DNA of 40,015 nucleotides, taken from sequence record PV889368.1. The stretch is one strand, 5' to 3'. Shown in pieces: positions 8,777 through 38,983 of this stretch. This DNA comes from a phage. The notes under the pieces were generated by a model. That model was not told the origin of the DNA. It did no database searches and saw only the letters and a program-made list of their open reading frames with translations. Position numbers and translations under genes: made by a program. Numbering within the stretch: the stretch's first letter is position 1; each line of letters starts with the position of its first letter.

Positions 8777-8805
8777 AAAGTCTCCTTATAACCTTAAGGG
8801 CCTAT

Positions 8806-8828
8806 AGTCCCTATAGTGATAGTTAAGG
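8806..8828 (-). promoter_or_regulatory. Phage RNAP promoter (phi13-like)
   Basis: Minus strand CTTAACTATCACTATAGGGACTATAGG. Confidence 0.8.
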
Positions 8829-8852
8829 TAAATCTATAGGCCCTTCAATAAG

Positions 8853-17124: not shown

Positions 17125-17185
17125 CTTGAATCTCCTCTTTAAGTTAAGACTAAAGTCTATCTTATAGTCATATCTTAGGGCCTAA

Positions 17186-17208
17186 AGTCCCTATAGTGAT
17201 AGTTTAGT
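17186..17208 (-). promoter_or_regulatory. Phage RNAP promoter (phi6.5-like)
   Basis: Minus strand CACTAAACTATCACTATAGGGACTTTAGG. Confidence 0.85.
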
Positions 17209-17334
17209 GTTTCACCTATGGATGACTGTTGGATTGATAGGATATGACTATCGGTTAGACTCAGTGTTTAGGGCGGTTGTTCGACCCGAACCACTTGTAC
17301 ATGCAGTAAAGGGCCAGAAGTCCGGCCCAGTAGA

Positions 17335-18837: not shown

Positions 18838-19118
18838 TGCTTGACCTCGAATCTCAGGTTGGACACGCCGAACTGGCCATCACCAAAGGTGTCTACCAGC
18901 TCCTCTTTGATGCTCTTCTTGGCGACAATTTCAAGGGCAGACTCAGGGCCTGACTCGATTGCTGCTTTGACCAGAGCCAACTGAAGCCCATCCAGCTTCT
19001 CACCATCAGCGTAGGCTTTAGTCATCTCAGCCAGTTGGCGACACATGGTCTCTTCTTCATTTGAGTTGACAACCATCTTCAGGTCGAAACTTACACGAAT
19101 ACGTTTAGTAATAGCCAT
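18834..19118 (-). CDS. gp5.5-like (H-NS-binding protein family)
   Basis: Start moved to ATG 19118 (AAGGAG RBS); MAITKRIRVSFDL resembles T7 gp5.5 MAMTKKFKVSFDV. Confidence 0.7.
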   Translation of the reverse strand: MAITKRIRVSFDLKMVVNSNEEETMCRQLAEMTKAYADGEKLDGLQLALVKAAIESGPESALEIVAKKSIKEELVDTFGDGQFGVSNLRFEVKQ

Positions 19119-19135
19119 TAGTGTTACTCCTTTCG

Positions 19136-19291
19136 TTAATGACATTCTTTCCACGTGGGTCCAATCTTACCCTCAGTATCAAGAACACATTTAAAGTTAT
19201 AGAACTCACCCACCTTACGCATAGCAAGTTGAGCAATCTTGACGACTTCTTCGGCAATCTCCTGAGTACGACACGCAATTTGTAACTCATC
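19136..19291 (-). CDS. DNA polymerase gp5, exon 2 (C-terminal 51 aa)
   Basis: Translates to DELQIACRTQEIAEEVVKIAQLAMRKVGEFYNFKCVLDTEGKIGPTWKECH, matching the T7 DNAP C-terminus DEIQVGCRTEEIAQ...NFRCLLDTEGKMGPNWAICH; in frame with exon 1 once the intron is removed. Confidence 0.8.
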   Translation of the reverse strand, partial: DELQIACRTQEIAEEVVKIAQLAMRKVGEFYNFKCVLDTEGKIGPTWKECH

Positions 19292-19641
19292 CTTTCTGTA
19301 TTCTCCCATTACTGGAAGTGTCGGACTATATCATCAGTCTTTGAGGTGACTGTCTGGCGCTTCGGGTTACGTGGGAATCTCACCCACGGCCCTACTCCTT
19401 TCGGATAGTCTCTACGCCTTCCACTCTCTAATCCACCCACAGGCGGCTGAGAACGCCACATTGAATATTTCGGAAGTATCCATCCTGATTCAATTTATGT
19501 GACGTAGGGATTATGCAGCCAGTCTCAGTGGCCTCAAGAATTAACTTCTTGCCTCTCATACATCCTCCCTATGGCTTGGCTCGGTATTGTCCCATTAGGA
19601 GTTCACCGAGTTCACCAGATTTAATGTGCACCATGATGTTA
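19292..19641 (-). ncRNA. Candidate ORF-less group I intron (350 nt) interrupting the DNA polymerase gene
   Basis: Exon 1 ends in U (..GUGCAU); the intron contains GUGCAC able to pair with it including a terminal U-G wobble (P1); the last intron base is G; R-like GUAGAGACUAUCC and S-like GAUAUAGUCC elements occur in that order ~30 nt from the 3' end; no ORF inside. Confidence 0.7.
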
Positions 19642-21657
19642 ATGCACCCATGCCATGTACGCAAAGTCACCTTCCCAGCCGTGAACATACCCTGCCTCTT
19701 CGAGCATACGTTCAGTCTCCACAATCCAGTGCTTACAGACTACCGCACCATCACCTTGAAGTAAGGCGTTCAGTGCTGAGTGTGGAGACCGGATGTGGAT
19801 ACGGCGACCATCAAGTCCACGCAACCAACGGCGCTTCCACTTGACGATATTCTCACCGTCCACCCACTTAGAGTCCGAGATTAACGTATTACTCACAGCT
19901 TCCCTGAGGTCCTTGATGGCTGGTGTACCCTCAATGAATTTCTTCATGAGAGCTGAACCTTCCTTCTTACCACCTCCTACTATCAGTCCAATCTTAGCGG
20001 CCCCTGCACCATACAGGAACGCATAGATGAACGTCTTAGCGTTGTTACGGAAAGCCTCATGGTCGTGGTTAGACTTATCGCGTGGGACGTTAGGTGCTAA
20101 CCCAGCGTTTACTGCGTTGGCCCAGTGGATGTCACCTTCGACCACAGTCTTCGCATAGTCACCACCATCAAACGGAGCCGCTCGGTTCCCCAGACAACGA
20201 AGCTCAAGACCTGAGGCATCCACACCCACTTGAATCCAAGGGTCTGGCTTACCATCCGTCTTGTTCCAAGCTGCACCGAAAGCACCACGGCAAGTCTCAC
20301 CATATGGAGCACCGTTAGCCGGGACCTGAGCCATGTTTGGTGCGCTATGAGTCGCACGTCCGGTTACTGCCCCGCATGGGTTGATTGAACCGTGCATACG
20401 TCCGTCTGGACCTACAAGTTTCAACCATGCGTTCTTACCTTCAGCCGCCTGACCGATTCGCTTCTGTACTACCAGATACTCACGGACCAGCTCTACGCAA
20501 GCCTGAGCCTCTGCGTCTGGTAGCTTAACGTGTTCTAACGTCTCGTCATCGACTACAGGTTTCCCGGTGTCAGTGAAGTCAACAGGCTCCCAGCCACGCT
20601 CCATCAAGACTTTTGCCAAGTGGTCTCCGCTTCCCGGATTAAACTCAACGTAAATGATTGGCGTGAATGGTGCTCCCTCCATCGTGTCTCGCGTATCGAG
20701 TTCACAAGGTTCAAGACCTAAGCGTTGAGCTTTGTTCTTCGGCTTCTTAAATATGCCACCGACCTTAGGATACACGACTCGCGGATACTTCGGAAGGTCC
20801 TTACCTGTCCGTGGATGCCTGAAGAACTCCTTGCCACCCTTCGGTGCGTACCAGCTACCGAAAGTCGAACGCAGCTTGTCAAGCAACTCCGCACGCTTGA
20901 CGGTGAGTTCACGATATAAGCCTTCGACCATCTCGGTGTTCATCGGATAGCCATTACGTTCCATCTTCGCACAGGTCCACGCAGCATCATGTTCCAGACG
21001 CAACGCATAAATCTGGTCGAAAGCGAACTGTTCAGACTGGAAGTAATACTTGTCAGTCAGGAACTTCTTGAACAACGCCAGTGTGACCACAACGTCTTGA
21101 ACGTTATAGTCCAGCATCTCCTGAGACGGGAACAACCATTCGTCCCCAGCCTTATATTCGATACCTTCAGCCTTGCACTTGGCAATGTAATCGTGTTTGT
21201 ACTCACCTTTCATCTCACCGAGACGATAACCCCAAGCCTCAAGAGATTGACGTCCCATCATATTAGGTGGCAGACGACCAGCTTTCACCGCGCCCATGTC
21301 GGAGAACTTAATGTTTGGATACATCAAGCGGCCCAGCACCAAGGTATCAATCATCTTGTGTTTCGGGAAGTTAAAGCGTTTCCCAAAGTACAGACGCTTC
21401 AGCTTGTCAATAGCCGGGACGTCGTAGTTGATACCGTTGTGGAATACCAGCATACCATCAGGTGATGCGGCAATCTCTTCCACCTTCTGCACATACTCTT
21501 TGAAGCCCCCGACGATACCGACCATCGGAGCTACCCCATACTTAAGGGTCTCATTCGACTCGGCGTTAATCAGGACCCCACAGTGGAACTGGGATACTGT
21601 ATCAAGGAGACCGTTTGTCTCGATGTCAGAACCCCAGATACTCTTAAGGTCAAACAT
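19642..21657 (-). CDS. DNA polymerase gp5, exon 1 (672 aa)
   Basis: Start moved to ATG 21657 (GGAGGA RBS); GSDIETNGLL, FHNG..YDVPA, EAWGYRLGEMKGEYK, GRATHSAPNMAQVP, GLELRCL, NAKTFIYAFLYGAG and GDFAYMAWVH match T7 gp5; TAA follows WVH where T7 continues. Confidence 0.92.
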
Positions 21658-21679
21658 GGTTAATCCTCCGTTTAGTCTA

Positions 21680-21720
21680 ATCATAAAGGCCACTCGATGT
21701 GAATGACCTTGAGTCTAGAC
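21680..21720 (-). promoter_or_regulatory. Conserved late intergenic element, copy 1 (candidate RNase III site, R4.7-like position)
   Basis: Plus strand aatcataaaggccac-N-gaatgaccttgagtcta; near-identical copies at 28685..28727 and 38668..38715. Confidence 0.4.
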
Positions 21721-23600
<1,880 letters not shown>

Positions 23601-23646
23601 TCACTCCTTAATCATAAATGCGAACAAAGGGACAGGACTCATTGTC

Positions 23647-23669
23647 CCATCCCTAAGGTGATAGTTTAG
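23647..23669 (-). promoter_or_regulatory. Phage RNAP promoter variant (phi4-like)
   Basis: Minus strand CTAAACTATCACCTTAGGGATGGG; differs from the consensus at two positions. Confidence 0.6.
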
Positions 23670-23881
23670 GCTTTGAAGAACTGAGCCAATTGGTCAGCTT
23701 TGGTGTCAGCTTGACGTGCCTTCATGCCAGCTTCCAGTGACGCGATGGTCAGCTTGTCAGCCAGAGCAGCAGCATCAGCCGCACCATCAGCAGTCTTCTT
23801 TTCTACCTTTCGTTCCAGTACCGCAGCACGACGATAACCACGCACCACCAGACGACCAAGAAATTCGATAAGTTTAATCAC
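23666..23881 (-). CDS. Hypothetical protein (71 aa) in the gene 3.8 position
   Basis: The ORF track entry 23666..23971 overlaps lysozyme by 66 nt; trimmed to GTG 23881 with AAGGAG RBS 9 nt upstream. Confidence 0.45.
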   Translation of the reverse strand: MIKLIEFLGRLVVRGYRRAAVLERKVEKKTADGAADAAALADKLTIASLEAGMKARQADTKADQLAQFFKA

Positions 23882-23904
23882 TGAGTTGTTCTCCTTATAG
23901 TTTA

Positions 23905-24363
23905 TTAGCCTCGGTCGGAAGTGACCAGTTCGTTGGTAGTCAACCAGCGTTGCAAGTCGAAACTTGGACACGCCTTCGGTGCTATGTCATGATGTGCTTT
24001 GATTTCTGCCTGAGGATACAGGGCCTTCAGGTCAGCCAGCTTGTTGCGCAGGGAGTCCATCTGGGCTGGAGTGAAGTTAGCTTCAAACTGACCCTTAGCG
24101 TTGATTCCACCTACAAGGCAGACGCCTACAGACCGTGAGTTCCAGTCCTTAACGTGTGACCCTACGACATTTACCGGACGTCCCTCTTCCACAGTCCCAT
24201 CGCGTTTGATGATAAAGTGGTAGCCAATTGCCAGCCAGCCCTGCTGCTTATGCCACATCTCAATGGTCTCACGACCAATGTCCATAGTCGGCGGGGTCGC
24301 TGAACAGTGGACGAAGATTGCGTCTGTAGCTTGACGCGGTTTGAATTGTACCTTACTTCCCAT
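23905..24363 (-). CDS. N-acetylmuramoyl-L-alanine amidase / T7 lysozyme (gp3.5)
   Basis: VQFKPRQATDAIFVHCSAT, GYHFIIKRDGTVEEGR, GVCLVGGI, FTPAQM and C-terminal HHDIAPKACPSFDLQRW..NELVTSDRG match T7 gp3.5. Confidence 0.95.
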   Translation of the reverse strand: MGSKVQFKPRQATDAIFVHCSATPPTMDIGRETIEMWHKQQGWLAIGYHFIIKRDGTVEEGRPVNVVGSHVKDWNSRSVGVCLVGGINAKGQFEANFTPAQMDSLRNKLADLKALYPQAEIKAHHDIAPKACPSFDLQRWLTTNELVTSDRG

Positions 24364-24826
24364 TGTAAACCACCAGTTCTACTACCACCAGATTCAGATG
24401 TGACTGGAAGCGCTGTGCGTCAGTCGTGTGCATCTGGAGCAACTTATGGTTGAAGACGTGAGAGTTGCTAATCTTCACGTACACTTCGTCAGGCTTACCG
24501 TGGACGATGAACGTCTGACCTACACCAATCTTGTTGATGGTCAGGACTTCACGTTTAACGGTGACAGGAGGGACACTAGAGGCTGGCAGGACTTGAGGTT
24601 TATCCTCTACGATTTCCTCAAGATTTCTTTCTAAAACCCACGCCCCCCACATACCGTCAGGCTGAGTGTCATGACCTGCTGCTCCGTGTTTGTAGGCTCC
24701 ACGCTCAGTGGATTCCACCAGAACAAGTCCAGGTGATGGTGCAGGGTCTTTCGCACATTTCGTAACGATAGTACCTTTGGGCCACCCGTAGCCACTAACC
24801 TTAAGTCTATATTTCTGAGTCATCAT
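24353..24826 (-). CDS. Hypothetical protein (157 aa) inserted between endonuclease I and lysozyme; no T7 counterpart
   Basis: ATG with AAGGAG RBS, ATGA overlap with the gp3 stop and overlap with the gp3.5 start, i.e. tightly embedded in the operon. Confidence 0.6.
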   Translation of the reverse strand: MMTQKYRLKVSGYGWPKGTIVTKCAKDPAPSPGLVLVESTERGAYKHGAAGHDTQPDGMWGAWVLERNLEEIVEDKPQVLPASSVPPVTVKREVLTINKIGVGQTFIVHGKPDEVYVKISNSHVFNHKLLQMHTTDAQRFQSHLNLVVVELVVYNGK

Positions 24827-25275
24827 TTAACTCCTTTCTTCTTGGGAATGAGTATACCTGAAGGCAGACGTACAGTCTCCTCCCGCAGCCACTCAACCGG
24901 GATGAACTTATCGGCATACTTATAGCCGTTCTTTTCGCACCATGCGCCATACGTGGTCGGAGACCCTTTGTATAGCTTGGAGCGGGAACTTGAGAACACG
25001 AACCGAATGTCTAACTCGGGGTGCTGTTCTCGTACCAGAAGGTGCTTCTTCCTGTCATCTGAGTCGAAGATACCTTTGGTCTCCACGATGATACCGTTAG
25101 GAAGGATAAAGTCTGGTGTGTACTTGTGGTCGGAAGCCGGAATCACATAGTTGATATAATGGCTTTCGTACTCCGCTTTGACGCCGTTCTGTTCCAGCCA
25201 CTGCTGGTTCTTGGCTTCAAGTCCAGAGCGGTAGGCACCCACAGAGTGCCCCCGTTTTGCAGACCATTGGGCCAT
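24823..25275 (-). CDS. Endonuclease I (gp3), Holliday junction resolvase
   Basis: VGAYRSGLE, YVIPASDHKYTPDF, LPNGIIVETKG, SDDRKKHLLVREQHPELDIRFVFSSSRSKLYKGSPTTYG match T7 gp3. Confidence 0.95.
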   Translation of the reverse strand: MAQWSAKRGHSVGAYRSGLEAKNQQWLEQNGVKAEYESHYINYVIPASDHKYTPDFILPNGIIVETKGIFDSDDRKKHLLVREQHPELDIRFVFSSSRSKLYKGSPTTYGAWCEKNGYKYADKFIPVEWLREETVRLPSGILIPKKKGVK

Positions 25276-25973
25276 TAGAAGTCGTAATCGCCACCAGAGT
25301 TGGAGTCGTCACCGCCTTCGGAACCATCGTCACCAAAGTCATCAGACCCGAAGTCACCATCGGTTGACGCTTTGTAGCCAGTACCGAGGTCTTCATCATC
25401 ACCCCAGCCGCCATCGCCACCAGCACCATCACCTTTCCACTCCTTCAGTTCTACCAGAAGGCAGGACTCAAGCTGGAGCTTAACGCTTGCACCAGTCGCA
25501 GCGTTCCACTTGAACGGCAGGACTTTAAACTTGACCTTCAGTTTGGAGCCAGCGCCAATATTCGGGACGTCACGGATTAACTTAGCATCGGTGTCGTAGA
25601 ACCGTAATATGATAGGCTCTGACTTACCATCCTTCAGGTAAGACGCGAAGCATTTAAACTTCAGGGTAACAGTACCATCACCATTCTCAATCCACGGCAT
25701 ATCGCCTTCTCGTGGTTCAATAGGCTTCTTGCCACGCTGAACCTGAGGTGGGTTCTTCTCGTGGTCTGCGAGTGCTTTCGCATACGCATCGTCGTGAATC
25801 TTCTGTAAGACATCAATCATCTTACGGACCTTCGGGTTGCTCAGGTCGAATGTCAGGTTAACCTTATGCTCACCACGCTCGTTAAACTTGGTGTCTGCTT
25901 TGTTCAGCCATGCGTAAGGCTCAACGATACCAGCTACCGGAGTGGTGAAAGTCTTCAGTTGCTCTTTAGCCAT
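25275..25973 (-). CDS. ssDNA-binding protein (gp2.5)
   Basis: EPYAWL, NPPQVQRGKKP, EGDMPW, NGDGT, GAGSKLKVKFKVLPFKWNAATGASVKLQLES and acidic C-terminus ending DYDF match T7 gp2.5. Confidence 0.95.
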   Translation of the reverse strand: MAKEQLKTFTTPVAGIVEPYAWLNKADTKFNERGEHKVNLTFDLSNPKVRKMIDVLQKIHDDAYAKALADHEKNPPQVQRGKKPIEPREGDMPWIENGDGTVTLKFKCFASYLKDGKSEPIILRFYDTDAKLIRDVPNIGAGSKLKVKFKVLPFKWNAATGASVKLQLESCLLVELKEWKGDGAGGDGGWGDDEDLGTGYKASTDGDFGSDDFGDDGSEGGDDSNSGGDYDF

Positions 25974-26013
25974 CGGTGTAAATCTCCTAATTTAAAAGTT
26001 ACGAACTGGACGT

Positions 26014-26036
26014 CTGTCCTACAGTGATAGTTTAGG
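26014..26036 (-). promoter_or_regulatory. Phage RNAP promoter variant (phi2.5-like)
   Basis: Minus strand CTAAACTATCACTGTAGGACAG. Confidence 0.65.
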
Positions 26037-26190
26037 CCTCAGGACGAATCCGTCCGACAACAAAACCAGCGTCCTCATACTCTTGGGACTTCAGGGTAGC
26101 CTCTTCAAGAGACTTTGCGTACACCGGAACCTCGAAGGACTGAACGCGACCCTCAAGCTCCACGATGTATTTCTTCTCAACCTCAGTCAT
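26032..26190 (-). CDS. gp2-like inhibitor of host RNA polymerase (52 aa)
   Basis: Not in the ORF track (<60 aa); ATG 26190 with AAGGAG RBS; [16 protein letters not shown]...[10 protein letters not shown] resembles T7 gp2 SFEVPIYAETLDEALE...AGFEVTRVRP. Confidence 0.7.
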
Positions 26191-26268
26191 AAACCGCGCT
26201 CCTTCCATAAGTTGTAGAGCTGAAGGTAATCGACGTTACCTGTCTCCTCAAATTTACGCTCGCACCAC

Positions 26269-26709
26269 TCACTTGGGAGCATAGCACTTACCTTTATGTA
26301 GGTCGAACAGCTCCTGATAGAAGGCTGCTTTGTTCAGGTCCTTCTCCATAGTGGCCAGCTCGGACTTCTTACCAGCTCGGAGTCGATACTTCAGGACGTT
26401 ACCCATGCAGAAGCCACGGAACTCAATGACAGTCATGGACCGGGCGATAATCTCAATGGATTCCACACCATCAAAGACCTGATAGTGGGACGGCTTGCGT
26501 ACACCATCGTCACGGACTTCTGGTTTATCCTGAACACGATTGGTGATAATTAGTGCGGCTTTACCGTGTCTAACTGGCTGCATAATCCCCGGCCATTCCA
26601 CCTCTACTGAGTCATCTGATGTACATACGCTAAGAACCTTACCATCACAGCGGCCACTAAATTGACCATGAGTCCCAACGTAGCGCACAACATCCCCGAC
26701 CTTAATCAT
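26269..26709 (-). CDS. gp1.7-like nucleotide kinase
   Basis: C-terminal KPSHYQVFDGVESIEIIARSMTVIEFRGFCMGNVLKYRLRAGKKSELA..EKDLNKAAFYQELFDLHKGKCYA matches T7 gp1.7; N-terminal part differs. Confidence 0.85.
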   Translation of the reverse strand: MIKVGDVVRYVGTHGQFSGRCDGKVLSVCTSDDSVEVEWPGIMQPVRHGKAALIITNRVQDKPEVRDDGVRKPSHYQVFDGVESIEIIARSMTVIEFRGFCMGNVLKYRLRAGKKSELATMEKDLNKAAFYQELFDLHKGKCYAPK

Positions 26710-26962
26710 TGAACACCTCCTTCACGAACTCAACGAACAGACGAACGCGAGGCCACTTGGTGTAGACCACAGGTACGTTGGTCTCACGCTTCTGGCGAGC
26801 CTCTTCAGCTTTGCCAGGAGTAATCAGAGCGAAGACTGTAGGTGACAGCTTAACGGCCTTCCCGAAGTAGCCCAGCTTCTCGTTGCGCTTAATGCAAGCG
26901 AACGGGTTGTTGGACAGGTGGAATGTACTGGTATAACGATTGAACATTAAGTTCTTAAACAT
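26702..26962 (-). CDS. gp1.6-position protein (86 aa)
   Basis: ATG with AAGGAGG RBS downstream of a phage promoter; positional. Confidence 0.45.
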   Translation of the reverse strand: MFKNLMFNRYTSTFHLSNNPFACIKRNEKLGYFGKAVKLSPTVFALITPGKAEEARQKRETNVPVVYTKWPRVRLFVEFVKEVFND

Positions 26963-26989
26963 GTCGGCCTCCTTAGGTCGAATTTATGG

Positions 26990-27012
26990 TTGTCCTATAG
27001 TGATAGCTTAGG
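26990..27012 (-). promoter_or_regulatory. Phage RNAP promoter (phi1.5/1.6-like)
   Basis: Minus strand CTAAGCTATCACTATAGGACAACC. Confidence 0.7.
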
Positions 27013-27049
27013 GTCAGACTGATGGCCCAGACGATAGCTTGCTAGCATA

Positions 27050-27083
27050 AGCAAAGAAACCCAGCAGTCCGAAGACCACTGGG
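27050..27083 (-). terminator. Intrinsic terminator (TE-like) for host RNAP after the ligase gene
   Basis: Minus strand CCCAGUGGUC-UUCG-GACUGCUGGG (10-bp stem, UUCG loop) followed by UUUCUUUGCUU; same position as T7 TE. Confidence 0.75.
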
Positions 27084-27094
27084 TTGACGTCTAG

Positions 27095-28159
27095 TTAGCT
27101 CTTAACGGTTGGATTGTCTTCCGTTCCACGCCAGCACTTGAAGCTAGGGTGACGTAGTGATCCATCCGGGAAGCGCTCCATGAATAGGACTTCCACCTGA
27201 TTACCCGCAAACGGGTTTCCATAAATAGTGCTTGAGCATAACCCCTTACGCCAGTTTAGAACGGAAGCGGTGAACTCATCCTTCTGCTCCTCAGTAAGAC
27301 CGCAGGCGTTAACCACCATGCCGTCTTCCAAGAGAACCTCGAAGCCAATGACCTTACCTTCGTTGGCCTTACCCGGAGTCCCCCACACGAGGCCGCACAC
27401 TGTCCCGTCGATGGTCTCCTCAGGCTTCATTTTCCACATGCCAGACTTCTTGCCACGCTTGTATTTGCCAAGCGGGTCCTTGACTACCAGACCCTCGTGT
27501 CCTTCCAGACGCTTCTGTTCGTACAGGGAGTTGAGCGACTCAAGGTCATAGACCGTGTGTGACTCAGACAGAACCCAGTCGATTTCCGGGAAGTATTTCT
27601 GGAGGAGAGGGACGATAGCTTCTGCCTTCAGGCGTGTGACGCTATGGATAGGACCTTCGGCTTTCGGGTCAAGGATGACGTTAAGGTCGATGACCCCGTA
27701 TACGACAACTTTGATGAACCTCTGGTCCAGACAGAATGGTAGCTTCTCTTTCTTCCTGTCCTTACCCCAGTGCTCACCAGTTGAAAACTCAAAGTTCTTT
27801 TGCTTCAACCACTTCGTTCGGATGAGACCTGAGGAGGTGTTGAAATCCACACCTTTGATCATGACCTCGCCATCGATCATCAGGCCGATACCTTCATAGC
27901 CAGCTTTACGAAGGAACCACCGCCAGTCAGCCTGAGTCCATGCATTGCCTAACTCAGAGTTCATCCACTCCAGTGCTGGAAGTGGTTTAGACTCACGGCT
28001 TAACCAATAAGTCTCACCCTCTCGCAGCACTAGAAGGTTCAACCGGACACCATCGTACTTCACTTCAGCTTCGAGAGACCCGGCAGCATCCAGTGCCTTC
28101 TTAACGCCAGCCTCAGAGTAATCTACAGCGCGGTGCGGGTTAGTTTTAATAGTTGTCAT
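27095..28159 (-). CDS. ATP-dependent DNA ligase (gp1.3)
   Basis: IKTNP, adenylation motif KYDGVR, WLSR.SK..PALE, DGE.MIKGVDFNTSSGL.RTKW, EGHEGLVVKDP, YKRGKKSGMWKMKPE, GKVIGFEVLLE and PDGSLRHPSF match T7 ligase. Confidence 0.95.
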   Translation of the reverse strand: MTTIKTNPHRAVDYSEAGVKKALDAAGSLEAEVKYDGVRLNLLVLREGETYWLSRESKPLPALEWMNSELGNAWTQADWRWFLRKAGYEGIGLMIDGEVMIKGVDFNTSSGLIRTKWLKQKNFEFSTGEHWGKDRKKEKLPFCLDQRFIKVVVYGVIDLNVILDPKAEGPIHSVTRLKAEAIVPLLQKYFPEIDWVLSESHTVYDLESLNSLYEQKRLEGHEGLVVKDPLGKYKRGKKSGMWKMKPEETIDGTVCGLVWGTPGKANEGKVIGFEVLLEDGMVVNACGLTEEQKDEFTASVLNWRKGLCSSTIYGNPFAGNQVEVLFMERFPDGSLRHPSFKCWRGTEDNPTVKS

Positions 28160-28176
28160 CGTTAGTGTCTCCAGAA

Positions 28177-28464
28177 TTAAAGGAATCGACCAGTGTAGTC
28201 GTTGAACTGTTTGTTAAACCAAGTGGCAACCGCTACTGTCTGCACATCTTCGTCATGAATATTCGGGTACTCCGTGAAGTCCTTCTCGATGAGGACCTCT
28301 TGCGTATGACTGTGGACGATAACCGCCCGGACGCAGTTCCTGTTCATCACCGGGTCAAACCAAGTGCTGACCTCTGCATTGTAGCCCGTCTCGGTCTGCC
28401 AGTTGTGGATGGCTGTACGCAGAGTGTTCATGTTGCCACTATGCGCTCTTGAGAACATGCCCAT
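28177..28464 (-). CDS. gp1.2-like (dGTPase inhibitor family)
   Basis: Position after gp1.1; weak similarity to T7 gp1.2 including HDEDV. Confidence 0.6.
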   Translation of the reverse strand: MGMFSRAHSGNMNTLRTAIHNWQTETGYNAEVSTWFDPVMNRNCVRAVIVHSHTQEVLIEKDFTEYPNIHDEDVQTVAVATWFNKQFNDYTGRFL

Positions 28465-28466
28465 GT

Positions 28467-28646
28467 TTACGCTCCTACGAAGTATTTCTCTTGGTTGACC
28501 ATAGAGTCTTTGCCTTCAGCGTTACGGAAAGCACCCTTGACACCACCGCCACGCTTGGTCTTGTTCAGCTTGCGGCCCTTCGGAATGTAATCTTCAGTCT
28601 GCTGACGTTCACGGATGCGCTCGAAGTTGATAGTGTTCTGATACAT
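28467..28646 (-). CDS. gp1.1-like small basic protein (59 aa)
   Basis: Not in the ORF track; ATG 28646 with GGAG RBS; KGRKLNKTKRG matches T7 gp1.1 KGRKLNKTKRD. Confidence 0.65.
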   Translation of the reverse strand: MYQNTINFERIRERQQTEDYIPKGRKLNKTKRGGGVKGAFRNAEGKDSMVNQEKYFVGA

Positions 28647-28684
28647 GTGGTTGAATCTCCAGTAGTTTACGTTAGGTTAGGGTT

Positions 28685-28727
28685 AATCATGAAGGCCACG
28701 ACTTTGAGTCATGACCTTGAGTCTAAT
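28685..28727 (-). promoter_or_regulatory. Conserved late intergenic element, copy 2 (candidate RNase III site, R1.1-like position)
   Basis: aatcatgaaggccac-N-catgaccttgagtctaatc; see copies at 21680 and 38668. Confidence 0.4.
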
Positions 28728-28746
28728 CCTATAGTGATAGTTTAGG
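28724..28746 (-). promoter_or_regulatory. Phage RNAP promoter (phi1.1-like)
   Basis: Minus strand CCTAAACTATCACTATAGGATTAGAC. Confidence 0.8.
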
Positions 28747-28820
28747 TTAACCTCTTCTGCGTTGGGTTAAAGTGAATACTGCGAGTGCTCCCAGCCACAG
28801 GGCCAGTAACTGTAGGTCTG

Positions 28821-29036
28821 TCATTTGGTCTGCTCCAGCTCGGACACTGCGTCTTTCAGGTATTTCTCGTGGCTAGATTCCACAAGATAGACGAGGGTCT
28901 TGAATGGGACGTTAAGCTGCTTTGACATTTCGGTAGGAATGACCGTGGTCTTCACCAGACCCTTGCCGTTGTGTTCTGTTACGGTCACGATTTGAGTCCC
29001 GCCCTTAACGCCAGCCTGCTTGTGTGCAAATTTCAT
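28821..29036 (-). CDS. Hypothetical protein (71 aa) directly after the RNAP gene; no T7 counterpart
   Basis: ATG with AGGAGAG RBS, 12 nt after the RNAP stop. Confidence 0.6.
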   Translation of the reverse strand: MKFAHKQAGVKGGTQIVTVTEHNGKGLVKTTVIPTEMSKQLNVPFKTLVYLVESSHEKYLKDAVSELEQTK

Positions 29037-29048
29037 AACTCTCTCCTG

Positions 29049-31730
29049 TTAAGCGAATGCAAAGTCTGAAGACAAGATGTCTTCGATATTCAGTTCACCT
29101 TTCTTCGGAAGCTCAGGCAACTTGTCGCGCTGACTCTCGTGAAGCTGGTATTCAAACTGCTCGTAGAAGTCAAGCAGCACATCGTTGTCGCGGTATGTCT
29201 CTACCATCGTCTCACGGACACCACGGAACAGATACTCAGCGTCAGCCGGGATGGTCCCGAAGCTATCGTGAATCACTGCGAATGACATCACACCATACTT
29301 GCGGTGCGTGTGGACTACAGTCTTGCGGAGGTGGCTACCATCTTGTGAGTGGACGAAGTTCGGGCTAATGCCTGACTCCTGCTTGTGTTTGTCCAGCTCT
29401 TTCTTTGTGCCTTTGTTGACTGTAGGCTGAAGGTTGAATGACCCTAAGAACATCAGGTTCAGACGAGTGGTATCCTTCTTGCGGTATTCCTGCCATACCG
29501 GGAAACCATCAGGTGTGACCCAGTGTACCGGAAGGCAAGGCTTCAGGATTTCACCAGTCTTCTTGTCCTTCACTTCAGCAGCCAGCAGCTTGGCAGCGCC
29601 TTGAAGCCACTTCATCGCGTCAACCGCAGCAACTACGGTCACACTCACAGCCTCCCAAATCATCTTGGCCATGAAGCGAGACGCTTGGCTTGGCTCAGTG
29701 AACATAGCGCCAGACCCTGAGTCAATCGCTGGCATTACGATGTCCTCGTAAACTTGGTCTGCGAAGCCGTACTCTTTCGACCCGTAGGCCAGAGTCATGA
29801 CCGAACGCTTAGTGACCTTGCGTGACATACCGTAAGTCAGCCACTGACGGGCCAGCTCTCGTGTCCCCAGCTTGAGACGCTCGGTAATCTCACCTGTTTT
29901 CTTGTCCTCGTGAGTCACCACCTCGTTGTCCGTACCGTTAACCAGCAGGACTTTAAGTTCCTCCTCAATGCGGTCGGACACAATGCGGTAGATGTCTTGG
30001 ACCTTACCGGATGGCGTCAGGTTTACTGCATGTCCACCGATGTGGTCACGAAGCATCGCGCTGAAGTGCTGAATCCCAGAGCATGACCCATCGAACGCTA
30101 TCGGAAGCGAGCATGAGTAAGACAATCCGTGGTGCATTACGCCAGCATACTCGAAGCAGAACGCAAGGAAGCAGAACGGAGAGTCTAACTTGCCCCACCA
30201 CTCAATGCTATCCATCGGTGCTTTGGCAGCAGCCATGATGTTGTCGTGGTTGTCTTCCACCCATTTGATGCGCTCCTCGAAGGTGACTTTATCGACACCA
30301 GCACAGTTTGCACCGTGGACCTTCAGCCATTTAAAACCATCAGCGCCAATAGGCTTGCCGACTGCCAGAGTCAGGAGACCCTTCTGCATGTCGTTGCCCT
30401 GAGGGTTGAACATCGGTACAGCGTAGACGCGGCCGCGCCAATCCATGTTATATGGGAACCATATGGCCTTGAACTGAGAGAACTTGTTTGCTTGGTTAAC
30501 GATAAAGCTCAGTGATAATCTGCGTGACTGTCTGGCCTTCTCGCGGCGATAGATACCAGCAGCAGCCTTCTTCCATGCCTTGAGTTCTTCTTCAGTCTCA
30601 CCCGCATAGTCCTCAGGCTTCAGTGGTTCCATCTGAGGGATGTCATCAATAGGCGTGTTGTTCAGCTTCTCGACCATGTTCACAACGTCCAGGACCTTCT
30701 TGTTCACTTTCCAAGGTGTACTCTGAATGATGTTCACAGCGTCGTAGACTTCAGGCATGTACACGTCTTCGTAACGTGCTACCGCAGACTTAGACCCTAA
30801 GCGAATCAGTGGTAATGGTCTGCGACCTTTGGCCCAATACCCACCACCTACGACACCCGTCCACGGCTTAGGTGGAACGACGCAAGGCTGATAGACTGGT
30901 GCGATACCCGCAAGGCTGAATCCACGTTGTGCCATCTTCTTTACCCAGAAGTCTGACAGGTGGACCATCTCAACGTCAGCCGCCGCATTGCCAGCACCAT
31001 AACGCTTAAGCTCAACCAGTTGTGTAGACTGAATGACAATCTCAAGCATCTTGATGCCAACGTGTACCGCCTCGGTAGGACTCCAAGTTCCCCAAGCATC
31101 TTCCAGTTGGCCCTGCTCCAGCATGGATGTCTCAACCGCTTGCATGTAGGCTTTCTTGTAGGATGCCCCGGCTCGCTTGTTCAGGTTCTCAGCTATCGCC
31201 TTCTTGAAGTGCTCCTGCTCCTTGTCACGGATGCGACCGAAGCGGATTTCATCTTCAAGAGTGCGACCTATCGCGGAGGCCATAGGTGTAATCGGTATCC
31301 CTTCAGGCTTGACCAGCTTAGAGAGAATGACCTTCAGTATGATAACCGCAGCAGACTCGCAGGAGATGCGCAGAGAGCGGTCCTTGACAGCCTTCCCTTC
31401 AGTGCTCAACATGGTGAACGCTACGCTCGGACGAGAGATTGACAGCTTCCCGTCTGTGCCTTCATGCCACTCCTTGACGGCTTGCGCAATCTTAGGGACC
31501 AGAGTCTGCATCAAAGGCTTGGCGACCTGATTGTCTGCCAGTTCCCCGCGCTCCGTCTGGCGCTCAAGGTTCTTGATGAAACGTCGCTCGCCTTCAGTGT
31601 ATGCCTCATGCTCAAGCTGAAGCTGTTTGACTGCAAGGTCTTGCCCGTAGTGGTCAGCCAGCAGGTTAAACGGCTCAATGGCGTTCGACACATCAGAGAA
31701 GTCGTGTTTGTCAATAGAGATGACGCTCAT
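29049..31730 (-). CDS. Single-subunit DNA-dependent RNA polymerase (gp1)
   Basis: Collinear with T7 RNAP across 893 aa, e.g. FSDV...PFN.LADHYG, RFGRIRD, PCVVPPKPWTG, AIWFPYNMDWRGRVYA, DGSCSGIQHFSAMLRD, VTKRSVMTLAYGSKE, HDSFGT, C-terminal FAFA. Confidence 0.97.
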   Translation of the reverse strand: MSVISIDKHDFSDVSNAIEPFNLLADHYGQDLAVKQLQLEHEAYTEGERRFIKNLERQTERGELADNQVAKPLMQTLVPKIAQAVKEWHEGTDGKLSISRPSVAFTMLSTEGKAVKDRSLRISCESAAVIILKVILSKLVKPEGIPITPMASAIGRTLEDEIRFGRIRDKEQEHFKKAIAENLNKRAGASYKKAYMQAVETSMLEQGQLEDAWGTWSPTEAVHVGIKMLEIVIQSTQLVELKRYGAGNAAADVEMVHLSDFWVKKMAQRGFSLAGIAPVYQPCVVPPKPWTGVVGGGYWAKGRRPLPLIRLGSKSAVARYEDVYMPEVYDAVNIIQSTPWKVNKKVLDVVNMVEKLNNTPIDDIPQMEPLKPEDYAGETEEELKAWKKAAAGIYRREKARQSRRLSLSFIVNQANKFSQFKAIWFPYNMDWRGRVYAVPMFNPQGNDMQKGLLTLAVGKPIGADGFKWLKVHGANCAGVDKVTFEERIKWVEDNHDNIMAAAKAPMDSIEWWGKLDSPFCFLAFCFEYAGVMHHGLSYSCSLPIAFDGSCSGIQHFSAMLRDHIGGHAVNLTPSGKVQDIYRIVSDRIEEELKVLLVNGTDNEVVTHEDKKTGEITERLKLGTRELARQWLTYGMSRKVTKRSVMTLAYGSKEYGFADQVYEDIVMPAIDSGSGAMFTEPSQASRFMAKMIWEAVSVTVVAAVDAMKWLQGAAKLLAAEVKDKKTGEILKPCLPVHWVTPDGFPVWQEYRKKDTTRLNLMFLGSFNLQPTVNKGTKKELDKHKQESGISPNFVHSQDGSHLRKTVVHTHRKYGVMSFAVIHDSFGTIPADAEYLFRGVRETMVETYRDNDVLLDFYEQFEYQLHESQRDKLPELPKKGELNIEDILSSDFAFA

Positions 31731-31799
31731 ACTTAAAGTCCTTGTTATTAGTCTTTCACTTAGAGTCTCTTTGGTCTTTCACTTGGAGTCTTAGACCTT

Positions 31800-31822
31800 G
31801 AGTCCTATAGTGATAGTTAAGT
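31800..31822 (-). promoter_or_regulatory. Phage RNAP promoter immediately upstream of the RNAP gene
   Basis: Minus strand GACTTAACTATCACTATAGGACTCAAGG, about 75 nt upstream of the gene 1 ATG; the leader carries a duplicated AAGTGAAAGAC. Confidence 0.7.
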
Positions 31823-32220: not shown

Positions 32221-32417
32221 TACAGTTTACTCCCAAGTGTTGCTATATCCCAGACGTTCGCTAAGTTACGCGTGAATCGTCCGTTAGGTTGACGCACAGT
32301 CCAGCGACCCAGACGTGCATAGTTGAATTTATAGACTTTACATGCCTTGTTGATGTCTCTCACCAGCACGTAGGCGATAAGTCCATAGCCTATGGCTATC
32401 AATAGTGCAGATATCAT
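32220..32417 (-). CDS. Small early protein with an N-terminal transmembrane helix (65 aa)
   Basis: ATG start; hydrophobic N-terminus MISALLIAIGYGLIAYVLV. Confidence 0.5.
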   Translation of the reverse strand: MISALLIAIGYGLIAYVLVRDINKACKVYKFNYARLGRWTVRQPNGRFTRNLANVWDIATLGSKL

Positions 32418-32420
32418 AGC

Positions 32421-32588: not shown

Positions 32589-32594
32589 AGTTAA

Positions 32595-32660
32595 CTCCTA
32601 TCAATTTAAGTGATAATCTTTGAGGCCACATATCAGTTAGATGACCTCTCGTCTATCACT
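32595..32660 (-). promoter_or_regulatory. Conserved early intergenic element, copy D
   Basis: Shares ...gaggccac...atcagt...gacct...tctatcactc... with copies at 33045, 33785 and 34375; lies in the 5' leader of the downstream ORF. Confidence 0.4.
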
Positions 32661-32661
32661 C

Positions 32662-33039
32662 CTACACTTCCACTGCGATGGTTGTCATCTTGGTCACAGT
32701 AAGACCACCAGCAAGCTCAACAGCATAGCGTATCGCCTCGTCTTTGGACCTGAAATCTTTTCCAGCAAGGTGGTAAATATCGCCGTTTATTACTTTGGTC
32801 GGCTTGCGGCTGACTGCTATGGCGTTGCTGAGGGAAAGCTCGCCTTTCGACCACTGAGAGTGCCAGCGAAGCACGCTCTTACTGGATACGTTGAAGTCAC
32901 TTGCCACCATCTCAAGCATGGAGTCAAGTCGAGAGGTGCCATATTGAGGCTGGCGCACCAAGTCGTATGCCTGTGCTACTCGGATTTTAAACTCTACAGA
33001 ATACTGATTGCGGGTCTTAGGTTGTGCTGGTGTAAACAT
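32662..33039 (-). CDS. Early protein with a transposase-type helix-turn-helix-like N-terminus (125 aa)
   Basis: ATG with AAGGA RBS; YSVEFKIRVAQAY....YGTS......VSSKSVLRWHSQW resembles IS3-OrfA-type HTH (from memory, unverified). Confidence 0.55.
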   Translation of the reverse strand: MFTPAQPKTRNQYSVEFKIRVAQAYDLVRQPQYGTSRLDSMLEMVASDFNVSSKSVLRWHSQWSKGELSLSNAIAVSRKPTKVINGDIYHLAGKDFRSKDEAIRYAVELAGGLTVTKMTTIAVEV

Positions 33040-33044
33040 TTGGC

Positions 33045-33125
33045 ATTCCTTCTGGTTAATTTAAATTAAGTGACAATCAGTCAGGCCACCAGCATTGATG
33101 ACCTGTAGTCTATCACTCAGCGTGC
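33045..33125 (-). promoter_or_regulatory. Conserved early intergenic element, copy C
   Basis: ttaatttaaattaagtgacaatcagtcaggccacc...gacctgtagtctatcactcag. Confidence 0.4.
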
Positions 33126-33784: not shown

Positions 33785-33860
33785 CAAAGTTAATTATGTG
33801 TGTGTTAGTGACTATCAGTCAGGCCGCTATGAGTCTAACGACCTGTAGTTAATCACTAGA
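33785..33860 (-). promoter_or_regulatory. Conserved early intergenic element, copy B (ocr leader)
   Basis: ctctcaaagttaattatgtgtgtgttagtgactatcagtcaggcc...gacctgtagttaatcact; near-identical to copy A. Confidence 0.45.
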
Positions 33861-34134
33861 AGGCTACATCTTTAAGCGCGTTCTTGAGCATGGTCTCTAT
33901 GTTTGAATCATTCACGTTGGTCATATACCCACCCACCTCTTGCACTTCCGCATTGTTGCTGGTGATTAATTCCTGCGCCTTTTTATGGCCCACTCCATGA
34001 TAGCAATCCCACACGAAGCGCTTGAACGTTAGACCCTTCTCTTTGTAGAGCGCGGCGGAGTCCGCCACTCCACGCAATAATCTTGATTCTAACTCCTTGC
34101 GGAAGGCGTCTGCTGTAGCTTTGTTCAGTCTCAT
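33856..34134 (-). CDS. Hypothetical early protein (92 aa) upstream of ocr
   Basis: ATG with AAGAGGA RBS, 12 nt after the upstream ORF. Confidence 0.6.
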   Translation of the reverse strand: MRLNKATADAFRKELESRLLRGVADSAALYKEKGLTFKRFVWDCYHGVGHKKAQELITSNNAEVQEVGGYMTNVNDSNIETMLKNALKDVAF

Positions 34135-34374: not shown

Positions 34375-34450
34375 TGTGTGTTAGTGACTATCAGTCAGGG
34401 CCTTCAGATGTAGACTCAAAGACCCTGTAGTTAGTCGCTATCGGCGCACA
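34375..34450 (-). promoter_or_regulatory. Conserved early intergenic element, copy A
   Basis: cctctcaaagttaattgtgtgttagtgactatcagtcagggcc...gaccctgtagttagtcgct. Confidence 0.45.
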
Positions 34451-38667: not shown

Positions 38668-38715
38668 TAGTGTTAACCATAAAGGCCACTACATATAGTA
38701 ATGACCTTGAGTCTA
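38668..38715 (-). promoter_or_regulatory. Conserved late intergenic element, copy 3 (candidate RNase III site, R18.5-like position)
   Basis: aaccataaaggccac-N-taatgaccttgagtctaaca. Confidence 0.4.
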
Positions 38716-38719
38716 ACAC

Positions 38720-38983
38720 TTATTGAACACCATACCCTGTGTCATTATCCTCAGTCGCTGAAAGCACCTTATCGTACTCTGCGTTAAGGGCCTCCATATC
38801 AGCCAGCGTCTTCTCGTCCACAGACACCTTGCTTAACACAAAGTTGTGACGAGCTAGTAGCTTCTCAATGGCGTTGTAGAGCTGAGGTGAACGCTTAGAG
38901 TCATCCCGCAGATCTTGCAGCATGAGTCGAGCACGTTCAGTATCTAGCATTAAGAGGAACTTCTCTAAGTCCATCTGCGTCAT
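38720..38983 (-). CDS. Terminase small subunit (gp18)
   Basis: FLLMLDTERARLMLQDLRDDSKRSPQLYNAIEKLLARH resembles T7 gp18 FLEMLDTAMAQRMLADLSDHERRSPQLYNAIKLLDRH. Confidence 0.85.
   Translation of the reverse strand: MTQMDLEKFLLMLDTERARLMLQDLRDDSKRSPQLYNAIEKLLARHNFVLSKVSVDEKTLADMEALNAEYDKVLSATEDNDTGYGVQ

What the first reader, a model, noticed from the sequence alone, without database searches (positions are those of the whole stretch)
21680..21720. Conserved late-region element at three T7 RNase III-site positions
A ~45-nt element (AAYCATRAAGGCCAC-N8-10-ATGACCTTGAGTCTA on the plus strand) occurs upstream of gene 5 (21680..21720), upstream of gene 1.1 (28685..28727) and between genes 18 and 18.5 (38668..38715), matching the relative positions of T7 RNase III sites R4.7, R1.1 and R18.5.
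Basis: partly seen in the sequence, partly recalled or inferred. Interest (0 to 1): 0.4.

Follow-up and report, generated by a model that had tools for sequence, protein, structure and literature searches.

The report
T7-type RNase III processing hairpins

Summary
The window is a reverse-complemented, permuted genome of a K1F-like phage (Kayfunavirus, T7 group), about 93% identical to phages ST31 and CR44b.

**Observation.** The three copies exist exactly as described, at + strand 21679-21717, 28685-28725 and 38675-38715.

**Structure.** On the sense (minus) strand each reads UAGACUCAAGGUCAU-loop-GUGGCCUUYAUGRUU. Each folds into a lower stem, an asymmetric internal loop and an upper stem of 10-12 bp.

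**Homology to T7 and T3.**
- The same sequence boxes sit at T7 sites R0.3, R0.5, R1.1, R1.3, R4.7, R6.5 and R18.5.
- A covariance model built from the window and T7 sites recovers 8 of the 10 RNase III sites independently annotated in T3, with no extra hits.

**Covariation.** Across 67 distinct sequences, 94% of cells pair and 14 of 18 pairs show compensatory changes.

**Position.** The sites lie before gene 1.1 (right after a phage promoter), before gene 5, and between genes 18 and 18.5. This is the arrangement annotated in T3.

- Four more family members in the early region.
- Three promoter-associated hairpins resembling T3 R3.8, R6.5 and R13.

**Verdict.** These are new members of a known kind, and interest is low. 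Cleavage itself is inferred, not shown.

The parts
21674..21721 (-). RNase III-type hairpin before gene 5 (counterpart of T3/T7 R4.7). Lower stem GUCUA/UAGAC, internal loop GACUC/UAUGAU, upper stem AAGGUCAUUC/GAGUGGCCUU. Predicted cut between 21683 and 21682, +/-1 nt.
   Evidence: Fold -19.4 kcal/mol, z -3.5. Covariance model 61.0 bits, E 1.6e-10. DNA polymerase ATG at 21657, preceded by GGAGG. Conserved in 226 phage records.
28678..28731 (-). RNase III-type hairpin before gene 1.1 (counterpart of R1.1). Predicted cut between 28689 and 28688, +/-1 nt.
   Evidence: Fold -20.2 kcal/mol, z -4.1. Covariance model 62.0 bits. gp1.1 (28467-28646) and the gp1.2 dGTPase inhibitor lie downstream.
28724..28746 (-). 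Phage RNA polymerase promoter (…CTATCACTATA|GGATTA, +1 at about 28729). Its transcript begins inside the 5' arm of the R1.1-type hairpin.
   Evidence: Promoter core ATCACTATAGG recurs 10 times exactly on the minus strand. CR44b annotates a promoter at the same place. T3 phi1.1 and R1.1 overlap in the same way.
38669..38720 (-). RNase III-type hairpin between gene 18 (small terminase) and gene 18.5 (Rz-like spanin), counterpart of R18.5. Predicted cut between 38679 and 38678, +/-1 nt.
   Evidence: Fold -23.4 kcal/mol, z -5.6. Covariance model 66.2 bits in sense against 11.8 bits antisense. Flanking genes confirmed.
33802..33861 (-). Early-region family member directly before the ocr-like gene 0.3 (R0.3 counterpart).
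   Evidence: 51.7 bits, E 1.5e-8, and not part of the model's training set. Downstream ORF is ocr-like.
34378..34443 (-). Divergent early-region family member with a longer loop, upstream of two small early ORFs.
   Evidence: 31.3 bits, E 3e-4, not in the training set. Orthologous hits in K1F (705-770) and EcoDS1 (899-964).
33064..33121 (-). Early-region family member with a CAGG/CCUG upper stem (compensatory change relative to AAGG/CCUU), before an orphan 125-aa ORF.
   Evidence: 62.4 bits. Fold -24.4 kcal/mol, z -4.3.
32604..32664 (-). Early-region family member with a GAGG/CCUC upper stem (compensatory change), before a 55-aa ORF and gene 0.6.
   Evidence: 54.6 bits. Fold -19.6 kcal/mol, z -3.2. 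Ortholog at K1F 1764-1823.
17153..17262 (-). Candidate non-canonical site (R6.5-like, lower confidence). A 7-bp lower stem, small internal loop and 11-bp upper stem enclose the phi6.5 promoter.
   Evidence: Fold -29.9 kcal/mol, z -3.9. Same architecture as the annotated T3 R6.5. Nearly invariant across four Kayfunavirus genomes. Not detected by the covariance model.
8796..8845 (-). Candidate non-canonical site (R13-like, lower confidence). A perfect 12-bp stem encloses the phi13 promoter.
   Evidence: T3 annotates R13 as a stem enclosing phi13.
23628..23654 (-). Candidate non-canonical site (R3.8-like, lower confidence). An 11-bp hairpin right after the promoter before gene 4, followed by CCCUUUGUUCGCAU, which is shared with T7.
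   Evidence: and the alignment with the T7/T3 phi3.8-R3.8 region.

Best explanation
The three elements, and at least four further copies in the early region, are RNA-level processing signals for the host's RNase III. They are homologous to the R sites of phages T7 and T3.

**Proposed mechanism**
1. The minus strand is transcribed into long polycistronic mRNAs. Host RNA polymerase does this from the early promoters, and the phage RNA polymerase from its own promoters.
2. Each element folds into a hairpin of about 50 nt. A 5-9 bp lower stem and a 10-12 bp upper stem stack into roughly two helical turns, interrupted by an asymmetric internal loop (GACUC on the 5' side, YAUGRU on the 3' side).
3. 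RNase III binds this helix. Because of the internal loop it cuts only one strand, within the 3' side of the loop (about UAU^GAUU).
4. The upstream mRNA is left ending in a protective 3' hairpin. The downstream mRNA (gene 1.1-1.2, gene 5, or gene 18.5-19) gets a short new 5' leader about 25-40 nt ahead of its ribosome-binding site.

**Shown here:** the repeats, the fold, the covariation, the homology to T7/T3 sites, the strand specificity and the synteny.

**Inferred:** the cleavage itself, its exact position, and its effects on stability and translation.
For: - Exact repeats far above chance.
- All fold into lower stem / internal loop / upper stem, with z-scores from -3.2 to -5.6.
- They share the boxes ACTCAAGGTC / GTGGCCTTTATGATT. 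In T7 these fall at the seven positions I recall as Dunn & Studier's RNase III cleavage coordinates.
- RNAalifold on 12 window and T7 sites gives 18 pairs, 10 of them with compensatory changes.
- Covariance model R1 gives seven window hits of 31-66 bits, all on the sense strand. The next best hit scores 14 bits.
- The model finds two window sites and T7 R6.5 that were not in its training set.
- It also finds 8 of the 10 stem_loops annotated 'RNase III recognition site' in T3 RefSeq, at the annotated coordinates, with no further T3 hit at E<1.
- On 67 distinct sequences from T7-group genomes and IMG/VR, 94.2% of cells pair, against 29-51% when the partner is slid. Fourteen of 18 pairs change on both sides, and no shuffle out of 500 reaches any measure.
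- Two conserved U-G wobbles make the fold strand-specific. At 38.7 kb the antisense score is 11.8 bits against 66.2 in sense.
- The positions match T3 R1.1, R4.7 and R18.5, including the promoter/R1.1 overlap.
- Literature: internal loops limit RNase III to a single cut and leave stabilising 3' hairpins (PMC1540722, PMC3867540). T7 R1.1 RNA is cut at one phosphodiester in vitro (PMC4858673). R4.7 and R18.5 are strong sites in T7 (bioRxiv 10.1101/106799, citing Dunn & Studier 1983).
Against: - No experimental data exist for this phage or, as far as I could find, for any Kayfunavirus (no paper). No related GenBank record listed annotates these sites.
- The T7 cleavage coordinates come from my memory of Dunn & Studier 1983. 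The RefSeq T7 table shown does not carry them.
- The early region has no ORF the size of T7's gene 0.7 kinase, and the PHROG and Pfam scans of its ORFs returned no kinase family. T7-style stimulation of RNase III is therefore probably absent, and processing efficiency could differ.
- Transcripts that start at the phi1.1 promoter contain only part of the lower stem of the 1.1 site.
- The A3 alignment was fitted to the model's structure, which inflates pair counts somewhat.
Confidence: 0.9

Rival explanations
1. The hairpins are functional RNA structures that act without RNase III cleavage. They might serve as 3' exonuclease barriers on read-through transcripts, or as translational operators that modulate access to the nearby ribosome-binding sites.
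For: The structure and covariation show only that the RNA fold is selected, not which enzyme reads it. The hairpins lie 15-40 nt upstream of strong Shine-Dalgarno sequences. RNase III can also bind without cleaving some substrates (PMC1540722, PMC3867540).
Against: Within the four base pairs next to the internal loop (AAGG/CCUU) and in the loop sequences, the elements are nearly identical to T7 R1.1. That RNA is cleaved in vitro (PMC4858673). Conservation of the unpaired loop sequences GACUC and UAUGAU across genera fits a specific enzyme-substrate geometry better than a generic barrier does.
Confidence: 0.06
2. The elements act at the DNA level. They could be weak host-RNA-polymerase promoters, protein-binding sites, or recombination hot spots, and the RNA fold would be incidental.
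For: There is one marginal 9/12 sigma-70-like match inside the gene 5 element. T7 has a minor E. coli promoter annotated 20 nt from R18.5. In the early region, indels between related phages begin and end in these hairpins.
Against: Two of the three elements have no sigma-70-like match, and such matches are fewer than in shuffles (13 against 18.4). Compensatory changes and conserved U-G wobbles show selection on pairing in the sense-strand RNA. All hits in the annotated genomes lie on the coding strand.
Confidence: 0.03
3. They are transcription terminators or pause sites for the phage or host RNA polymerase.
For: They are stable hairpins in intergenic positions.
Against: No U-tract follows any of them, and none was flagged by the terminator scan. 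The same scan did pick out a terminator-like hairpin with a T-rich tail just after the ligase gene, at 27085-27058, the position where EcoDS1 and T3 annotate the early terminator TE. The genes downstream of the 18.5 site have no promoter of their own, so termination there would be harmful.
Confidence: 0.01

Closest known systems
Phage T7 RNase III site R1.1, the standard model substrate 'R1.1 RNA' (Dunn & Studier 1983; Nicholson laboratory)
   Same: Position just after a phage promoter and before gene 1.1. Near-identical core ACUCAAGGUCAUUC...GAGUGGCCUUUAUGAUU. Lower stem / asymmetric internal loop / upper stem.
   Different: The lower-stem sequence and the terminal loop differ, with compensatory changes. 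T7 has a second promoter (phi1.1B) after the site, and the window does not. Cleavage is demonstrated for T7 and only inferred here.
Phage T3 annotated stem_loops R1.1, R4.7 and R18.5 (NC_003298)
   Same: Identical gene context for all three: R1.1 overlaps the phi1.1 promoter, R4.7 lies directly before gene 5, and R18.5 lies between genes 18 and 18.5. The model finds them at 55-61 bits.
   Different: A different genus (Teetrevirus against Kayfunavirus). T3 also has a canonical-type R1.3 and R1, for which the model finds no counterpart in the window.
Orthologous but unannotated hairpins in K1F, EcoDS1 and CR44b (Kayfunavirus)
   Same: Same sites at the same positions: K1F 5564-5624, 12851-12909 and 36444-36504; EcoDS1 6046-6106, 13039-13097 and 35934-35994.
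   Different: The number of early-region copies varies (K1F has 3, EcoDS1 has 2, the window has 4) because cassettes bounded by hairpins are present or absent.
E. coli rRNA-operon and phage lambda (N leader, sib) RNase III sites
   Same: Same enzyme, and the same requirement for about two helical turns of irregular duplex.
   Different: No sequence homology. The rRNA stems are formed by long-range pairing and are cut on both strands. The T7-type sites are local hairpins cut once.

Membership tests
T7-group (Studiervirinae) RNase III processing signals | Local hairpin of about two helical turns, built from a lower stem and an upper stem separated by an asymmetric internal loop | tested here: met
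   All three elements, and two early copies, fold this way. Energies -19.4 to -24.4 kcal/mol, z -3.2 to -5.6. Consensus structure.
T7-group (Studiervirinae) RNase III processing signals | Shared sequence boxes with experimentally defined T7 sites (ACUCAAGGUC / GUGGCCUUUAUGAUU) | tested here: met
   Alignments A1 and A2. In T7 the 3' box falls at 880, 1458, 5877, 6438, 13882, 18553 and 36846, which is at R0.3, R0.5, R1.1, R1.3, R4.7, R6.5 and R18.5 (the R coordinates are recalled from Dunn & Studier 1983).
T7-group (Studiervirinae) RNase III processing signals | Recognised by a profile that separates independently annotated RNase III sites from the rest of a genome | tested here: met
   Model R1 contains no T3 sequences. 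It finds 8 of 10 annotated T3 sites with no extra T3 hit at E<1. The three elements score 61-66 bits, against a noise ceiling of 14 bits in the window.
T7-group (Studiervirinae) RNase III processing signals | Base pairing maintained by compensatory substitutions, on the transcribed strand | tested here: met
   94.2% of cells paired, 14 of 18 pairs with double changes, slid controls 29-51%, and no shuffle out of 500 reaching the observed values. U-G wobbles conserved at two upper-stem positions.
T7-group (Studiervirinae) RNase III processing signals | Intercistronic location at syntenic positions (before 1.1, before 4.7/5, between 18 and 18.5) | tested here: met
   ORF map and PHROG assignments. 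T3 annotation.
T7-group (Studiervirinae) RNase III processing signals | Proximal and distal box base pairs free of antideterminants | tested here: inconclusive
   The four pairs next to the internal loop (AAGG/CCUU) are identical to T7 R1.1. The distal pairs near the terminal loop differ and were not scored against the published antideterminant rules (PMC1540722).
T7-group (Studiervirinae) RNase III processing signals | Single, site-specific cleavage by host RNase III in vivo and in vitro | not testable with these tools
   Requires end mapping in wild-type and rnc hosts, or an in-vitro assay.
Intrinsic (rho-independent) terminator | G+C-rich stem followed by a U-tract | tested here: not met
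   None of the three was flagged. The 3' flanks read UAAAC, CCUAAC and CUAACU.
   Only a marginal 9/12 match in one of the three elements. Region-wide counts are below the shuffle expectation.
Rfam families | Match at the gathering threshold | tested here: not met
   The only Rfam hit in the window is a group I intron. No curated family covers these hairpins.

The most novel reading that the evidence does not exclude
Besides being processing signals, the conserved hairpins may serve as homologous 'joints' at which early-gene cassettes (hairpin plus ORF) are gained, lost or swapped among Kayfunaviruses.

- Relative to K1F and EcoDS1, the window carries a 457-nt insertion made of one hairpin plus an orphan 125-aa ORF. 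It is bounded by the repeated 5' arm UGAGUGAUAGAC.
- EcoDS1 has a single chimeric hairpin where the window and K1F have two hairpins flanking extra ORFs.
Probability: 0.3. Interest if true: 0.4.

Novelty: new member of a known kind. Interest (0 to 1): 0.15.

Why it matters
- It allows correct annotation of the transcript architecture of K1F-like phages, which are used in K1 E. coli phage-therapy work. The mature mRNAs would end and begin at these seven to ten sites.
- GenBank records for this genus annotate promoters but not these sites.
- It changes nothing conceptually. RNase III processing of T7-group mRNAs has been textbook knowledge since the 1970s and 1980s.
- The covariance model built here could be used to annotate such sites across the Studiervirinae, because Rfam has no family for them.

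Tried and rejected
- **Rfam scan of the whole window.** No family covers the hairpins; the only hit is a group I intron.
- **T7 RefSeq annotation table.** It does not list RNase III sites, so I relied on the T3 RefSeq stem_loop features and on recalled T7 coordinates.
- **Fixed-spacer search for the joined motif.** Zero matches, because the spacers are 9 and 11 nt.
- **Literature searches for RNase III sites in K1F, Kayfunavirus or CR44b, and for a table of T7 R coordinates.** Nothing usable. The K1F genome paper is not held.
- **Promoter and terminator scans.** These elements are not explained as sigma-70 promoters or intrinsic terminators.
- **Cassette idea tested in more distant phages.** I checked phages carrying a homolog of the 125-aa ORF. 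It is flanked by hairpins in Penshu1 (Kayfunavirus), but not detectably in Klebsiella phage VLCpiA3d or Escherichia phage SRT7. The idea is therefore at best genus-local.
- **Pfam and PHROG scans of the orphan early ORFs.** No function found.
- **Python scripts on the T7 locus.** They failed because the file was not in /data. The built-in tools were used instead.

Full report
**What the window is.** All long ORFs lie on the minus strand. Megablast of 19000-31800 gives about 93% identity over more than 90% of the query to Escherichia phage ST31, pO2, P762 and Citrobacter phage CR44b, all Kayfunavirus (K1F-like, Studiervirinae, the T7 group). The window is therefore a reverse-complemented, circularly permuted genome of a K1F-like phage. 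Read on the minus strand, the gene order is T7-like:
- early genes at about 34.4-31.8 kb;
- RNA polymerase at 31730-29049;
- genes 1.1, 1.2 and ligase;
- primase/helicase;
- DNA polymerase at 21657-19642;
- then, across the permutation point, genes 17.5, 18, 18.5 and 19 at 39.2-36.4 kb.

**The observation.** It is correct.
- AAYCATRAAGGCCAC occurs at 21679, 28685 and 38675. ATGACCTTGAGTCTA occurs at 21703, 28711 and 38701. All are exact and on the + strand.
- With up to three mismatches each half has 14 matches, against 1.35 and 2.49 expected. No shuffle reached that number.
- The spacer is 9, 11 and 11 nt rather than 8-10.
- Because the genes are on the minus strand, the biologically relevant reading is 5'-UAGACUCAAGGUCAU-loop-GUGGCCUUYAUGRUU-3'.

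**Structure.** Each element folds on the sense strand into the same shape:
- a lower stem of 5-7 bp whose sequence differs between copies but stays complementary (GUCUA/UAGAC, GGAUUA/UAACCC, GUGUUA/UAACAC);
- an asymmetric internal loop (GACUC opposite YAUGRU);
- an upper stem of 10-12 bp that begins AAGGUCAU/GUGGCCUU with two U-G wobbles;
- a loop of 3-5 nt.

Energies are -19.4 to -23.4 kcal/mol, with z-scores of -3.5 to -5.6.

**Homology to T7 and T3 RNase III sites.**
- In T7 (NC_001604) the 3' box GTGGCCTTNATGATT matches at 880, 1458, 5877, 6438, 13882, 18553 and 36846. In each case this is 10 nt before the coordinates I recall from Dunn & Studier (1983) for R0.3 (890), R0.5 (1468), R1.1 (5887), R1.3 (6448), R4.7 (13892), R6.5 (18563) and R18.5 (36856). 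Those coordinates come from memory, because the RefSeq table shown does not list the R sites.
- Alignments of the window elements with these T7 regions show the shared core ACTCAAGGTC...GTGGCCTTTATGATT.
- RNAalifold on 12 sequences gives 18 pairs, 10 of them with compensatory changes.
- I built covariance model R1 from five window sites and seven T7 sites.
  - In the window it gives seven hits of 31-66 bits, all on the minus strand, and the next best hit scores 14 bits. Two of the seven (33802-33861 and 34378-34443) were not in the training set.
  - In T7 it also finds the held-out R6.5.
- The independent test is T3. Its RefSeq record annotates ten stem_loops as 'RNase III recognition site'. 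R1 has no T3 input, yet it recovers eight of them at the annotated coordinates (R0.3, R0.5, R1, R1.1, R1.3, R4.7, R6.5, R18.5) and produces no other T3 hit at E<1. It misses only the short, atypical R3.8 and R13.
- K1F, EcoDS1 and K11 have hits at the orthologous positions.

**Covariation.**
- A pattern scan of IMG/VR plus the reference genomes gave 79 model hits, 67 of them distinct.
- On these, 94.2% of cells form standard pairs, against 29-51% when the 3' partner is slid by 1-3 columns.
- Fourteen of 18 pairs show changes on both sides, and no shuffle out of 500 reaches any measure.
- The alignment is fitted to the model, which favours the structure somewhat, but the margin is large.
- The IMG/VR pattern fixed the upper-stem sequence and left the lower stem free, and eight of nine lower-stem pairs covary.
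- The two conserved U-G pairs would be C-A mismatches on the opposite strand. Accordingly, the antisense score at 38.7 kb is 11.8 bits against 66.2 in sense. The selected structure is therefore in the transcript.

**Position.** The arrangement is exactly the one annotated in T3.
- *Site before gene 1.1.*
  - It follows a phage promoter (…ATCACTATA|GG, +1 at about 28729). CR44b annotates a promoter at the same place.
  - The hairpin's 5' arm begins at the transcription start.
  - In T3, phi1.1 (5984-6006) and R1.1 (6003-6053) overlap in the same way.
- *Site at 21.7 kb.* It lies between a small 65-aa ORF and the DNA polymerase ATG at 21657. In T3, R4.7 (12970-13018) lies directly before gene 5 (13043).
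- *Site at 38.7 kb.* It lies between the small terminase gene (38983-38720) and the Rz-like spanin gene (38618-38169). In T3, R18.5 lies between genes 18 and 18.5.

Gene identities rest on PHROG hits with E-values of 1e-27 to 1e-148.

**Mechanism.**
- From the literature:
  - RNase III needs about two helical turns. Internal loops restrict cleavage to a single phosphodiester, and the resulting 3' hairpin protects the upstream RNA from 3'-5' exonucleases (PMC1540722, PMC3867540).
  - T7 R1.1 RNA is cut once in vitro (PMC4858673).
  - R4.7 and R18.5 are strong sites in vivo (bioRxiv 10.1101/106799, citing Dunn & Studier 1983).
- By homology I predict a single cut at about UAU^GAUU. In minus-strand coordinates this is between 21683 and 21682, 28689 and 28688, and 38679 and 38678 (+/-1 nt).
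- The cut would leave the hairpin on the upstream message and a leader of 25-40 nt on the downstream one.
- This step is inferred. Nothing here shows cleavage.

**Alternatives.**
- None of the three elements is terminator-like, and none is followed by a U-tract. The same scan did flag a terminator-like hairpin just after the ligase gene at 27085-27058, where EcoDS1 and T3 annotate the early terminator TE.
- Only one of the three has a marginal 9/12 sigma-70-like match, and such matches are fewer than in shuffles.
- A role as RNA structures that act without cleavage cannot be excluded computationally. It is unlikely given the near-identity to a proven substrate.

**Beyond the finding.**
- The early region holds four further members, before the ocr-like gene 0.3 and other small ORFs. 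Their upper stems carry compensatory variants (CAGG/CCUG and GAGG/CCUC).
- Together with the 1.1 site, that makes five sites in the presumed host-polymerase transcript. That transcript would run from a probable early promoter at about 34.7 kb to the terminator-like hairpin at about 27.06 kb. T7's early precursor also has five processing signals (PMC3867540).
- Three hairpins of different sequence resemble T3's atypical sites:
  - stems enclosing the phi6.5 promoter (17153-17262) and the phi13 promoter (8796-8845);
  - an 11-bp hairpin after the gene 4 promoter (23628-23654), followed by CCCUUUGUUCGCAU as in T7 R3.8.

  These three are candidates only.
- Comparison with K1F and EcoDS1 shows that early-region indels begin and end in the hairpins. 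The same ORF-between-hairpins arrangement recurs in phage Penshu1, but not in more distant phages.

**Verdict.** These are previously unannotated members of the long-known T7-type class of RNase III processing signals. Interest is low.

Noticed in passing
window 19302-19651 (-): A group I intron (Rfam RF00028, 54.7 bits, E 2.5e-11, full-length model match) lies immediately after the 672-aa DNA polymerase ORF (19642-21657), so gene 5 is split. The K1F RefSeq record also has a joined gene 5, there with an HNH endonuclease ORF inside the intron. The window's intron is only about 350 nt and appears to lack that ORF.
   Followed up: partly
window 32604-33121 (-), compared with L003 1715-1875 and L005 1440-1600: Relative to K1F and EcoDS1, the window has a 457-nt insertion made of one RNase III-type hairpin plus an orphan 125-aa ORF (32662-33039, no Pfam or PHROG match). 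It is bounded by the repeated hairpin 5' arm TGAGTGATAGAC. The ORF is sporadic, found in 24 phage records. In phage Penshu1 it is again flanked by two hairpins.
   Followed up: partly
window 33802-34443 (-), compared with L005 899-964 and L003 705-1087: EcoDS1 has a single hairpin whose 5' part matches window/K1F hairpin A and whose 3' flank matches hairpin B. The window and K1F have two hairpins separated by extra sequence, which in the window holds a 68-aa and a 92-aa ORF. This is another indel bounded by hairpins.
   Followed up: partly
window 17153-17262 (-), 8796-8845 (-), 23628-23654 (-): Three hairpins are associated with phage promoters. Two enclose the phi6.5 and phi13 promoters in their loops, and one directly follows the promoter before gene 4. 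In architecture they resemble the atypical T3-annotated RNase III sites R6.5, R13 and R3.8. They are nearly invariant among Kayfunaviruses and are not detected by the covariance model.
   Followed up: partly
window 31828-34443 (-): No ORF in the early region is near the size of T7's 359-aa gene 0.7 kinase (the largest early ORF is 169 aa), and the PHROG and Pfam scans of the early ORFs returned no kinase family. The phage therefore probably cannot stimulate RNase III by phosphorylation as T7 does (PMC4858673).
   Followed up: partly
window 38690-38702 (+), the loop of the 18.5 hairpin: On the sense strand the terminal loop and distal stem read UUACUAUAUG. This resembles the phage promoter core UCACUAUAGG (2 mismatches to the 11-mer) and is probably coincidental.
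   Followed up: no
window 34698-34727 (-) and 27058-27085 (-): The best sigma-70-like match in the scanned region (TTGACA-18-TAGTAT, 10/12) lies upstream of the early genes. A strong terminator-like hairpin with a T-rich tail lies just after the ligase gene. These are the probable early promoter and the early terminator TE, and they bound the host-polymerase transcript that contains five of the hairpins.
   Followed up: no
window 1534, 8810, 13352, 14351, 17190, 26994, 28728, 31804, 35821 (+ coordinates of CCTATAGTGAT), with one-mismatch and two-mismatch variants at 26018 and 23652: A set of about eleven phage RNA polymerase promoters has the core ATCACTATAGG on the minus strand, at T7-like positions: before genes 1, 1.1, 1.6, 2.5, 4, 6.5, 9, 10, 13 and 17, and at the right end.
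   Followed up: partly
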